Sequence record: KP682386.1
Reading direction: 5' to 3' (one strand)
Length of the DNA: 64,000 nt
Source: Escherichia phage PA36
Made by a program: the position numbers. Position 1 is the stretch's first letter, and the number at the start of each line of letters is the position of its first letter. Below, piece by piece: positions 1-3,000 of the stretch.

Positions 1-3000
1 TGGTTTATCATTTTGAAAAATATAATTTTATTTCATCCTCCTGGTCACTTTGGGGCACGTCTGGGGCACGGGCATTAAGGACATTATTCAACATGGCAAC
101 TTGAGTCACGCTGCACTCAGGCATCCATGCACCATAAACATTGTAGACCATGCTGGCGCTGGAGTGCCCCATCTGTGATGCAATAAATGTCGGGTTTGCT
201 CCGGAAGATAAAGCCCAGCACGCATAGGTATGGCGTGACTGATACGCTTTACGGGATCGGATACCCGCTCTTTTTATTGCTGAATCCCATGTCGCTCCGA
301 TGGAGCTTACCGCGTAGTTAATACCCGCCTTGTGATTCTTGCGAACGATTTGCGGACAGAAAACAAAAGTGCACTCGTGCAAAATTGTTCTTCCGTACTC
401 GCGTAATTGAACAGTGATCTGATGCTGCCTGCTAAGACGAGTAAGCATCGCCTGGTTTTTAAGTGCTTCAATTGCTGGTGCCAGAAGATGTATAACCCGG
501 TTAGTGCCTGCGTCGGTCTTTGGTAGCGTAAAATCACCTATTTTTGTAAAATTTCGTCGCACTGTTATCGTGCCAGCTTTCAGGTCGATATCCTCCCATG
601 CAAGTGCGGCAATTTCACCGTGTCGCATCCCTGTAAAAACAGCCACTGTCCAGAGGTTTTTGGTCTGTTGATGATGGCAGGCATCAATGAGACGGCTAAA
701 CTCATCTCTGGTCAGTGGATCCGGCACTGGTTTTGATTTCCTCAGCGGTGTTATTGAATTAAACGGGTTTTTCTCCAGATACCCGTTTTCGGCGGCAAAG
801 CTGAACATTCCGGCTGTTGTTGTCATGTAATAGTTCACTGTGGGTACGGTTCTTCCTTTTCGGGACGTGCTGGTTTTCCTGCTTCCCTTTTCCCCGGTCA
901 GTAAATCTTTCCTGATAAACAGCAGATCTTCTTTTGTAATCGATGACGCCAGCCTGCCAGGACCAAGCCTCGGTAGCATATTTTTCATCACTGATTGATA
1001 ACGATTTAAGGCGTTACTACCGATTTCCATTGCTTTCAGAGTAAGCCATTTCTGTGCCAGTTCACCGACGGTGATATCTTTTTTTACCAGGCCAAATAGC
1101 TTCAGGTTAGGTGAGTCAGGGAATCGATCGGCATAATCAAACGTTCCTGTTCTGATTGCAAAGCAGACCGAAGCCCTTAACTCACCAGCGATCTTTCTGT
1201 TTTTCGGTGTATCGGGCACGCGAAGATTTTCGCGCACTCGTTTACCCCTGTACTTAAACGTTATTCGGAGTTTTCCTCCGTGATTTTCAACGCCGGCTGG
1301 ATAGGCTGAATTCGCCATTGTTCCTCCTGCGTCCAAGAGCACGCTCAGGTTATACTCTTATGGACAAGAATTAAACATCCTGAGATGGTAAGGGTTGGTT
1401 TTTGATCCAAGTGTTGATGGTAGGAAGATGATAGAGACATTCGCTGTTTTTCTTTGGCGTTCCGTCGGGGGCGATTTGTTTATATTCTCTGCCGTTCATC
1501 CACGCACTGTCCCTGGCGCGTAATATTGTTCCTTTTCTCAGGCCTGTTACAGCCATTAAAAGCTCCAGTGTTACCCATTCATTCGCATTTATCTGTACAA
1601 CAGGTGTGATGACTGGCTGAATGCCATGGTTATGTTGGTTTACTAACTCGCGCATAAGTTGCCTCTGCATGTGTAAGAAAAAACCGCCATCAGGCGGCTT
1701 GGTGTTCTTTCAGTTCTTCAATTCGAATATTGGTTACGTCTTATTCGATGCGCACTCCTGGTATTTCGCCTTTTGATATTGCTAAGTCATAAATTTGCGC
1801 GGCACTATACCCATCTCGCATCCATGAATCTAAGGCGCGAACAGCCTCGCTACGCTTTTTATCTTCTCTCTCATTTTTGATATCAACGAGGACATCAACG
1901 CAATTAAGGCAAATGTGGATTTTGTCTTTACATTCGATCATGGCGGCTTTGCCATGATTTCCGCCACACAGTGAGCATAAATCTTCAGGGTCTGGCTGGT
2001 ATTTCTGTAACGTTAGAGGGTTGAATGTTGAACAGGCCATAATCATCTCCATAAAACAAAACTCGCCGTAGCGAGTTCAGATAAAAGAAATCCCCGCGAG
2101 TGCGAGGATTGTTATTCATTGCCGATATTCACCTTTATCGCGAACACCTTTACCGGTTTATCACCGAAGTGCGGATGTGTGATTGTCTTGATTTCATATC
2201 CGTCATACGGAACATCAATTCTTCGGCTGGAATCGTCGCGCTTCGGATATCCCTTTGTGATAATCAGGCGGTCATACTCGCGGAACATAATTCGCTTATT
2301 CCAGTAGTCATTAAACAGGCGATACTCTTCCGTTTTCTCTCCGCGAATCATGGCATCGAAGTATTCACCTTTAACGGCAAGTTGCAGGTTAGCCACGGTT
2401 AACCTCCTGCGGCGGTTCTGGTAGCGGCATCCAGTGAGTTGCTTGCTCAATACCATTACCCGGCTTAATCGTTGCATCTCCGCGCCGAAAGGTGCTTCCG
2501 GTATAGCGTGCGGAGCATATTAGCGGTTCAACCAGAGAGCTATCGAAATTCACCGAAATAAGCACGTTCTGGCCCTTTTCAGGCATTCGATCACTACAGC
2601 TTATCCAACTATCCGGAGTTACCGGAGAGTTACCAGCCTCATAAGCGGATTTCATCCAGTGCGTAAGCGTTTCGATGCTTACACATCCGCAATCAACGTC
2701 TATTTTTTCTTTTTGTTCTGACAACCATTCCTGGAATGACAGCTTGGCAGTCTGGCTTGCTGGATCAATTCGTGGCAGGCCGATATATAGTGGTACATTT
2801 CCCGGCTCCATCGAATTGTCGGGACAAATAAACGTGTTACAACCATATTTAACGAGCTCAATTCCCACTGTGTCGATAGTGGCGAATGGTTCAGTGGTCA
2901 ATGCAGTCAACGCAATTTCATAAGCACGGCGCTCAATATTATCTCGCACGTCCAGGCTGCCGATTCGCTCTTTGATTTCTTTAATCATTTCTTTGTCGGT

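What the first reader, a model, noticed from the sequence alone, without database searches (positions are those of the whole stretch)
1..70. Left end: candidate att core inside the int 3' end plus GGGGCAC repeats
The 12-mer TTGAAAAATATA at 13-24 recurs exactly at 63944-63955, about 63.9 kb away, which matches a 933W-size genome plus two IS629 copies. Between the core and int lie two direct repeats TTTGGGGCAC and CTGGGGCAC (47-67) that may be arm-type integrase sites. If right, the core overlaps the last codons of int and only about 12 bp of host flank is in the window.
Basis: seen in the sequence. Interest (0 to 1): 0.45.

Follow-up and report, generated by a model that had tools for sequence, protein, structure and literature searches.

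The report
Stx2 prophage attachment-site arm, not core
The left end of this window is the inner arm of the already known attachment site of a 933W/Sp5-type Shiga-toxin prophage. The repeated 12-mer is not the crossover site, which is a 7-bp GTTTCAA lying just outside both window ends, but the GGGGCAC repeats do look like integrase arm-binding sites.

Summary
The main interpretation is wrong.

- **What the window is.** It is a 933W/Sp5 (VT2-Sakai)-type Stx2 prophage of wrbA carrying two IS copies. It runs from prophage base 22 to the last base before attR.
- **Where the core is.** attB, attP, attL and attR share only GTTTCAA. That 7-mer lies 14-20 nt left of window base 1 and starts at what would be base 64001. 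The window holds no host DNA, and the 12-mer is absent from attB.
- **What the 12-mer is.** TTGAAAAATATA occurs once in each attP arm, 46 bp left and 26 bp right of the core. Both copies sit where relatives of this integrase carry IHF-consensus sites. I read them as λ H2/H'-like bending sites, with moderate confidence.
- **What the GGGGCAC repeats are.** They lie inside the int coding sequence, not between the core and int.
  - The same TGGGGCA motif recurs four times in the other arm, in pairs 11 bp apart.
  - It is kept in 122 of 123 distinct related int genes, with its synonymous codon positions frozen.
  - Int has an N-terminal arm-DNA-binding domain.
  - So they are very probably arm-type Int sites.

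This is an ordinary λ-type attachment site of a known phage, so interest is low.

The parts
1..70 (.). P' arm of attL/attP of the 933W/Sp5-type prophage. It is phage DNA throughout. The crossover core GTTTCAA lies outside the window, at what would be positions -20 to -14.
   Evidence: Window 1-1500 is 100% identical to 933W positions 22-1521 and is contiguous in circular phage genomes. Four-way att alignment.
8..1342 (-). int, a tyrosine integrase with an N-terminal arm-DNA-binding domain. Its last ~20 codons are encoded by the P' arm, and its stop codon is at 8-10.
   Evidence: ORF list. PF12167 Arm-DNA-bind_2 at residues 7-70, E 6e-26, and PF00589. Annotated as int in 933W and VT2-Sakai.
1371..1670 (-). 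xis, a putative excisionase (recombination directionality factor).
   Evidence: PF06806 DUF1233 putative excisionase, E 1e-30. Annotated as xis in 933W. 46-52% identical to the gene next to int in relatives.
51..57 (+). Candidate arm-type Int site P'1 (TGGGGCA). It encodes Pro-Gln of the Int tail on the minus strand.
   Evidence: The pair is conserved in 122 of 123 distinct family int genes, with frozen synonymous positions.
62..68 (+). Candidate arm-type Int site P'2 (TGGGGCA), 11 bp start-to-start from P'1. It encodes Ala-Pro on the minus strand.
6..18 (+). H'-equivalent IHF-like site, TATCATTTTGAAA (11/13 to YAANNNNTTGATW). It overlaps the int stop codon and the left copy of the 12-mer.
   Evidence: It sits at the family-conserved offset of 32 nt from the P' pair. 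There, 73 of 84 relatives have their best IHF-consensus match, and 62 of 84 have at most 1 mismatch.
13..24 (+). Left copy of the 12-mer TTGAAAAATATA, 26 bp right of the core. It comprises the TTGA half of the IHF-like site plus an A/T tract.
63943..63954 (+). Right copy of the 12-mer, in the P arm 46 bp left of the core.
63936..63948 (+). H2-equivalent IHF-like site, TAACAGATTGAAA (12/13 to YAANNNNTTGATW).
   Evidence: It lies 20 nt upstream of the conserved box. In 44 of 66 relatives the best IHF-like match lies 18-21 nt upstream of the box. At most 1 mismatch in 30 of 66, against 9% of shuffles.
63956..63971 (+). Conserved P-arm box GCTCTTGGACGATCTT, function unknown. It is kept across the integrase family whatever the integration site.
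   Evidence: Seen in 933W, Klebsiella phage RCIP0098, PPyecE_EH1910 and Gifsy-2. 120 IMG/VR loci carry it, and 80 of these have at least 2 TGGGRCA motifs upstream of it.
63830..63878 (+). Four candidate arm-type Int sites in the P arm: TGGGGCA at 63830, 63841, 63861 and 63872. They form two pairs with 11-bp spacing, 123-171 bp left of the core.
   Evidence: 933W and Stx2 phage I have a third pair. Relatives have 2-4 copies at the same place.
63881..63899 (+). Tandem AAAGAACG repeated twice, 11 bp apart, next to the P-arm Int sites. Candidate Xis sites by inference only.
   Evidence: D11. Analogous tandem repeats occur at the same place in relatives.

Best explanation
Window 1-70 is the P' arm of the λ-type attachment site of a 933W/Sp5-type Stx2 prophage integrated in wrbA.

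**Core (shown).** Strand exchange happens in the 7-bp overlap GTTTCAA. It lies just outside the window on both sides, so the window is pure prophage DNA.

**Arm-type sites (inferred, about 0.8).** The integrase has an N-terminal arm-binding domain and a C-terminal catalytic domain. I infer that the arm-binding domain binds the TGGGGCA pairs, two in the P' arm inside the 3' end of its own gene and four in the P arm. The catalytic domain would bind beside GTTTCAA.

**12-mer copies (inferred, about 0.5).** The two TTGAAAAATATA copies are the shared part of two similarly oriented IHF-type bending sites. One lies on each side of the core, like λ H2 and H'. They would fold the arms back so that Int can bridge arm and core.

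**Xis.** The adjacent Xis gene (DUF1233) would direct excision from the P arm. I did not identify its sites.
For: **Core and boundaries**
- Window 1-1500 equals 933W positions 22-1521, and window 63400-64000 equals the last 601 nt of Sp5-type records.
- GenBank annotates GTTTCAA as the core in three records.
- In circular phage DNA the two window ends are joined by exactly GTTTCAA plus 14 nt.
- The Sakai chromosome attL and attR and an intact wrbA give a clean four-way alignment in which only GTTTCAA is shared.
- The reconstructed attB is 100% identical in O157 genomes and is covered at 80% or more in 5128 of 5426 E. coli genomes.
- Sequenced Sp5 excision junctions contain the same GTTTCAA (PMC2669165 Fig. 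S5; the extracted text has c rather than t as the first base after it in attR).

**Arm-type sites**
- Seven of the 13 TGGGGCA occurrences in the 64-kb window lie within about 400 bp of attP. Six of them are in one orientation, in pairs spaced 11 bp.
- Relatives with 50-70% identical Int and many different integration sites keep TGCCCCA-N4-TGCCCCA at the int 3' end in 122 of 123 distinct genes. They also keep 2-4 copies in the other arm.
- Synonymous positions inside the motif are frozen: Ala GCC 100/100 against a 24% background, Pro CCA 117/122 against 30%, and Pro CCC 112/112 against 12%. The third base of the next codon, just outside the motif, varies freely.
- The P' pair starts 99-100 nt after the conserved P-arm box in all six intact attP sequences examined.
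- PF12167 arm-DNA-binding domain, E 6e-26. The Int N-terminus is the most conserved part of the family.

**IHF-type sites**
- WATCARNNNNTTR is the best match at a fixed offset of 31-32 nt from the P' pair in 73 of 84 distinct arms.
- 62 of 84 have at most 1 mismatch, against about 8% of shuffles and 8 of 84 on the other strand.
- A weaker equivalent exists in the P arm.
- The two 933W 12-mers fall exactly on these two positions.
Against: - No binding experiment was available for Int, IHF or Xis on this attP.
- The 933W P' IHF-like site is among the poorest in the family, at 11/13 with one of the conserved TT bases changed. IHF use at that position is therefore uncertain in this phage.
- The P-arm IHF-like signal across the family is modest: at most 1 mismatch in 30 of 66, using a slightly relaxed consensus.
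- The family sequences are related by descent, so the counts are not independent events.
- The AP..PQ peptide encoded by the P' pair could also be under some protein-level selection.
- The invariant box GCTCYTGGACGATMTT has no assigned role in this model.
Confidence: 0.8

Rival explanations
1. One reading: TTGAAAAATATA is the att core duplicated at attL and attR. On this view it overlaps the end of int, and about 12 bp of host DNA sits at the left edge of the window.
For: The 12-mer is an exact direct repeat near both window ends, about one prophage length apart.
Against: - The 12-mer is absent from intact wrbA attB.
- Both copies lie inside one continuous attP in circular phage genomes, 91 bp apart, with GTTTCAA between them.
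- Host wrbA sequence begins only left of GTTTCAA in the Sakai chromosome and the VT2-Sakai record.
- Window 1-12 is phage sequence.
Confidence: 0.01
2. The 12-mer recurrence has no function of its own. On this view it is an A/T-rich coincidence or the remnant of an old duplication within attP, and IHF (if used at all) binds elsewhere.
For: - Repeated 12-mers are common in 64 kb: 710 pairs.
- The 933W P' copy matches the IHF consensus at only 11/13.
- Other weak repeats also link the two arms (D5-D7, D9).
Against: - It is the only word of 11 nt or more shared by the two short end regions.
- It extends to 19/23 identity.
- Both copies fall on positions where diverged relatives carry consensus IHF sites at fixed offsets.
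Confidence: 0.25
3. The 12-mer or 23-mer copies are sites for a different protein, such as Xis (DUF1233), Fis or a further Int contact, rather than IHF.
For: - Xis is conserved in the family at 46-52% identity, and its sites are not identified.
- The P-arm copy abuts the invariant box of unknown function.
Against: - Xis-type factors normally act on one arm only, according to established λ knowledge. Here the repeat is on both arms.
- The conserved pattern at the P' position is specifically WATCARNNNNTTR.
Confidence: 0.15
4. The GGGGCAC pair at 49-69 is conserved only because it encodes a needed Ala-Pro...Pro-Gln peptide in the Int tail. On this view it is not a DNA site.
For: It lies in coding sequence, and the peptide AP..(M/V)P(Q/H) is conserved.
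Against: - Synonymous positions inside the 7-mers are invariant, while amino-acid changes are tolerated (Ala to Val through GTC, Pro to Ser through TCC).
- The same 7-mer pairs recur in the non-coding P arm of this phage and of relatives.
- One subgroup changes both sites together to TGCCCCG.
Confidence: 0.05

Closest known systems
Annotated attachment site of phage 933W / VT2-Sakai (Sp5) in wrbA (GenBank AF125520, AP000422, AP004402; Sp5 junctions in PMC2669165 Fig. S5)
   Same: The sequence is identical at both ends, with the same int and xis genes and the same 7-bp core GTTTCAA. The window is this prophage with one extra IS copy.
   Different: The records annotate only the core. The arm-type and IHF-like sites described here are not annotated, and I found them described in no paper I could search.
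Bacteriophage λ attP (P1, H1, P2, X1/X2/F, H2, C-O-C', H', P'1-P'3)
   Same: - A heterobivalent Int with an arm-binding N-terminal domain.
- A 7-bp overlap.
- Adjacent arm-type sites about one helical turn apart on both arms.
- IHF-type sites about 20-35 bp (P') and 53-65 bp (P) from the core.
- P' sites about 65-82 bp from the core, and xis next to int.

The λ layout is from established knowledge.
   Different: - The arm motif differs (TGGGGCA).
- The arm-binding domain family differs (PF12167).
- The P' sites and the H'-like site lie inside the int coding sequence.
- There are 4-6 P-arm sites as tandem 31-bp units.
- There is an extra invariant 16-bp box.
Integrases of Gifsy-2, PPyecE-type prophages and Klebsiella phage RCIP0098 (the 933W record notes similarity to the Rac and Qin integrases)
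   Same: Int is 60-68% identical. The arm motif pair at the int 3' end, the P-arm copies, the conserved box and the spacing are the same.
   Different: Core sequences and host integration sites differ. 933W has a longer Int tail, a weaker H'-like site, and a different tandem repeat next to the P-arm sites.

Membership tests
   The 12-mer is absent on both strands of an intact wrbA locus (L008). GTTTCAA is present once.
   The junctions are at GTTTCAA. The 12-mer copies are 26 bp and 46 bp inside phage DNA.
933W/Sp5-type Stx2 prophage of wrbA | Both ends and int/xis are identical to the reference phages | tested here: met
   100% identity over window 1-1500 and 63400-64000 to Sp5-type records, and 99.5-100% to 933W. 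The 20-kb stretch 15000-35000, annotated with the Shiga-toxin 2 A subunit gene, is 100% identical to the PA-series phages.
933W/Sp5-type Stx2 prophage of wrbA | Flanked by the two halves of wrbA | not testable with these tools
   The window contains no flank. Identical ends are flanked by wrbA in the Sakai chromosome and in AP000422.
λ-type (heterobivalent tyrosine integrase) attP | Integrase with a separate arm-DNA-binding domain plus a tyrosine recombinase catalytic domain | tested here: met
   PF12167, E 6e-26, residues 7-70. PF00589, E 2e-17, residues 202-395.
λ-type (heterobivalent tyrosine integrase) attP | A short overlap/core identical in attP and attB | tested here: met
   7-bp GTTTCAA, within 15/17 flanking similarity.
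λ-type (heterobivalent tyrosine integrase) attP | A repeated arm-type motif, unlike the core, on both arms | tested here: met
   TGGGGCA twice in P' and four times in P, all in one orientation. Conserved in the family with frozen synonymous sites.
λ-type (heterobivalent tyrosine integrase) attP | Int actually binds the arm-type motif | not testable with these tools
   This needs EMSA or footprinting. No publication was found.
λ-type (heterobivalent tyrosine integrase) attP | Sites for a bending protein (IHF) between the arm sites and the core | tested here: inconclusive
   Strong in the family: 62 of 84 P' arms have at most 1 mismatch at a fixed offset. In 933W itself the match is 11/13 in P' and 12/13 in P.
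λ-type (heterobivalent tyrosine integrase) attP | A recombination directionality factor encoded next to int | tested here: met
   DUF1233 putative excisionase at 1371-1670, E 1e-30. Its DNA sites are not identified.

The most novel reading that the evidence does not exclude
The integrase family containing those of 933W, Gifsy-2, the yecE-type prophages and related phages, found across Enterobacterales, shares one fixed attP layout whatever the integration site. As far as I could find, this layout has not been described. It consists of:
- arm-type TGGGGCA pairs, one pair written into the int reading frame with frozen synonymous positions;
- an IHF site exactly 32 nt from that pair;
- an invariant 16-bp box, GCTCYTGGACGATMTT, of unknown function, 99-100 nt from the P' pair.

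The box may be the site of an unidentified factor. The layout could be used to locate attP, and hence the exact prophage ends, in hundreds of prophages.
Probability: 0.4. Interest if true: 0.35.

Novelty: new member of a known kind. Interest (0 to 1): 0.2.

Why it matters
It matters little for the original claim. The 933W/Sp5 attachment site in wrbA has been annotated in GenBank for years, and the proposed core is simply wrong.

The useful by-products are practical:
- **Prophage ends.** They are fixed. The window is pure prophage, from 14 nt past the attL core to the base just before the attR core.
- **attP map.** It gives a testable map of Int, IHF-like and unknown sites for a medically important Stx2 phage. 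Arm-site copy number differs between isolates, four in this window against six in 933W.
- **Layout rule.** The family-wide layout could help delimit related prophages and suggests simple experiments on lysogeny and excision of Stx phages.

Tried and rejected
- **Third P' site.** I considered the inverted TGGGGCA at 165-171 as a third P' site. It encodes Met-Gly-His of the conserved catalytic region, and the Gly codon varies freely in the family (GGC 64, GGG 37, GGT 16, GGA 13). I treat it as a coding coincidence.
- **Overall motif enrichment.** TGGGGCA is not enriched in the window as a whole (13 observed, 11 expected). Only its clustering at attP is unusual.
- **Source record.** I checked whether the window is the PA27 record, which has the same implied length of 64,021 bp. 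It is not, because the second IS sits elsewhere.
- **Conserved box.** I tried by eye to fit the 16-bp box and the 12-mer to IHF or Fis consensus sequences. The box fits neither.
- **Literature.** Searches for arm-type or IHF sites of 933W, Gifsy or Rac integrases found nothing specific. Subscription papers are not covered.
- **A text discrepancy.** The extracted text of PMC2669165 Fig. S5 shows 'c' after the core in attR. The Sakai chromosome has 't'. I trust the chromosome sequence.

Full report
**Observation.** The 12-mer TTGAAAAATATA is at 13-24 and again at 63943-63954. TTTGGGGCAC is at 49-58 and CTGGGGCAC at 61-69. A repeated 12-mer is unremarkable in 64 kb, which holds 710 same-strand pairs. 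It is, however, the only word of 11 nt or more shared by the two end regions, and it extends to a 19/23 repeat. The int ORF spans 8..1342 on the minus strand. Both the 12-mer and the GGGGCAC repeats therefore lie inside int, not between a core and int.

**What the window is.** Window 1-1500 is 100% identical to phage 933W positions 22-1521, to VT2-Sakai and to many Stx phages. Window 63400-64000 is 100% identical to the last 601 bases of Sp5-type records. The interior (15000-35000) matches the PA-series Stx2a phages at 100%. Two identical 1311-bp elements lie inverted at 24329-25639 and 48840-50150. The window is not PA27 itself, because the second IS is at a different place.

**Where the real core is.**
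- GenBank annotates a 7-bp core at 933W positions 1-7, at 31749-31755 of the circular Stx2 phage I genome, and at the wrbA junctions of VT2-Sakai.
- In circular phage DNA the sequence reads ...aatgcttcatg GTTTCAA catgtctaaggata tggtttatcattttgaaaaatata.... The window's last base is the g before GTTTCAA, and its first base is 14 nt after it.
- I aligned attL and attR from the Sakai chromosome, attP and an uninterrupted wrbA from an O157 genome. The four sites share only GTTTCAA. attL is the attB left half plus the attP right half, and attR is the reverse.
- The reconstructed attB is 100% identical in O157 genomes and is present across E. coli.
- Sequenced excision products of Sp5 contain the same GTTTCAA (PMC2669165, Fig. 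S5).
- The 12-mer is absent from attB.

The window contains no host DNA.

**The GGGGCAC repeats.**
- TGGGGCA is not enriched in the window overall, with 13 observed against 11 expected. However, 7 of the 13 lie in the roughly 400 bp of attP. There are two at 51 and 62, four at 63830, 63841, 63861 and 63872, all on the same strand in pairs 11 bp apart, and one inverted at 165. 933W and Stx2 phage I carry one more 31-bp unit, giving six P-arm copies.
- I collected relatives of Int at 50-70% identity: Klebsiella phage RCIP0098, PPyecE_EH1910, Gifsy-2, IMG/VR contigs, and genomes of many Enterobacterales genera.
- In 122 of 123 distinct genes the 3' end of int carries TGCCCCA-N4-TGCCCCA or a close variant, in the same reading frame.
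- Codon positions inside the motif are frozen: Ala GCC 100/100 against a 24% background, Pro CCA 117/122 against 30%, and Pro CCC 112/112 against 12%.
- The third base of the following codon varies freely, and amino-acid substitutions that keep most of the 7-mer are tolerated. That pattern points to constraint on the DNA, not only on the protein.
- The other arm of relatives carries 2-4 copies of the same motif in the same orientation.
- A scan for a conserved P-arm box found 120 loci, and 80 of them have at least 2 TGGGRCA motifs upstream. Their downstream sequences differ widely, meaning many integration sites.
- In six intact attP sequences the P' pair starts 99-100 nt after the box.
- Int has a PF12167 arm-DNA-binding domain, E 6e-26. 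The N-terminus is the best conserved part of the family.

I conclude that these are arm-type Int sites. This is inferred, since no binding data exist. The inverted copy at 165-171 encodes Met-Gly-His, and its Gly codon is free in the family, so it is a coincidence.

**The 12-mer.**
- In attP its copies lie 46 bp left and 26 bp right of the core, in direct orientation.
- Anchoring 84 distinct P' arms on the arm-site pair, the best match to the IHF consensus WATCARNNNNTTR falls at offset 31-32 in 73 of them.
- 26 matches are perfect and 36 have one mismatch. Only about 8% of shuffles reach one mismatch or fewer, as do 8 of 84 arms on the opposite strand.
- 933W has TTTCAAAATGATA at that offset (window 6-18, minus strand), with two mismatches. 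The 12-mer is its first half plus the adjoining A/T tract.
- In the P arm, 44 of 66 relatives have their best IHF-like match 18-21 nt upstream of the box. 933W has TAACAGATTGAAA at 63936-63948, 20 nt upstream, with one mismatch.
- Both 12-mer copies therefore sit on the two family-conserved IHF-type positions, which resemble λ H2 and H' in placement.

I hold this reading at about 0.5, because the 933W P' site is a weak match and nothing was tested biochemically.

**Other pieces.**
- xis (DUF1233) lies next to int and is 46-52% identical across the family.
- Tandem AAAGAACG repeats at 63881-63899, and analogous repeats in relatives, are candidate Xis sites.
- The invariant box at 63956-63971 has no assigned function.

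**Comparison and novelty.** This is the known 933W/Sp5 attachment site, built like λ attP. It has a heterobivalent Int, a 7-bp overlap, arm sites on both arms, bending sites and Xis. It differs in the motif and the arm-binding domain family, and in having the P' sites and the H'-like site inside the int reading frame. I found no paper describing these arm or IHF sites, but subscription literature is not covered. The finding as written, a candidate att core, is wrong. What remains is an ordinary example of a known kind, with a modest family-wide layout as a by-product.

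Noticed in passing
window 63956-63971: A 16-bp box, GCTCTTGGACGATCTT, is conserved in the P arm of the whole integrase family whatever the integration site. It lies 29 nt from the core in 933W, and the P' arm-site pair starts 99-100 nt after it. It fits neither the IHF nor the Fis consensus, so its function is unknown.
   Followed up: partly
window 63828-63880; L002 1274-1366: Arm-site copy number differs between isolates. A 31-bp unit carrying a TGGGGCA pair is present twice in this window and in Sp5-type phages, but three times in 933W and Stx2 phage I. AP004402 annotates this as 'arrangement gg; region III'.
   Followed up: partly
window 63881-63899: Tandem AAAGAACG repeated twice, 11 bp apart, next to the P-arm Int sites. 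Relatives have different tandem repeats at the same place (GAAGTTCGTCGA, AAGTTCGTTAA). These may be Xis sites.
   Followed up: no
window 24329-25639 and 48840-50150: Two 100% identical 1311-bp insertion elements in inverted orientation. Sp5-type records of 62,708 bp match 15000-35000, which contains the first copy, as one unbroken piece. The second would then account for the implied prophage length of 64,021 bp. Inversion between them is conceivable.
   Followed up: partly
window 4386-4857 and 61829-62299: A direct repeat of about 470 bp at 94-96% identity near the two prophage ends. It could support homologous deletion or rearrangement. I did not annotate it.
   Followed up: no
window 8-46 (minus strand): The 933W Int has 7-9 extra C-terminal residues that relatives lack. 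They are encoded by the spacer and the IHF-like site of the P' arm, and the int stop codon lies inside the IHF-like site.
   Followed up: partly
L268-L270, L273, L277 (Hafnia, Rahnella, Yersinia): One subgroup carries TGCCCCG instead of TGCCCCA at both P' sites. The concerted change suggests the arm motif has co-evolved with Int.
   Followed up: no
attP/attB around the core (L002 1470-1500; L008 about 286-312): Beyond the 7-bp identity, attP and attB are alike over 17 bp: CATgGTTTCAAcATGTC against CATcGTTTCAAtATGTC. The flanking CATG...CATG symmetry in attP may mark the core-type Int sites.
   Followed up: no
PMC2669165 Fig. S5, against L006 363-375: The extracted text of the published figure shows 'c' after GTTTCAA in Sp5 attR. 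The Sakai chromosome and AP000422 have 't'. This is probably a figure or text-extraction slip.
   Followed up: partly
L106 (IMG/VR 2681812993_000005): This contig has a 933W-like P arm (four TGGGGCA, AAAGAACG, TGAAAAAT and the box) joined to a different core and flank. It shows the same arm design at another integration site.
   Followed up: no
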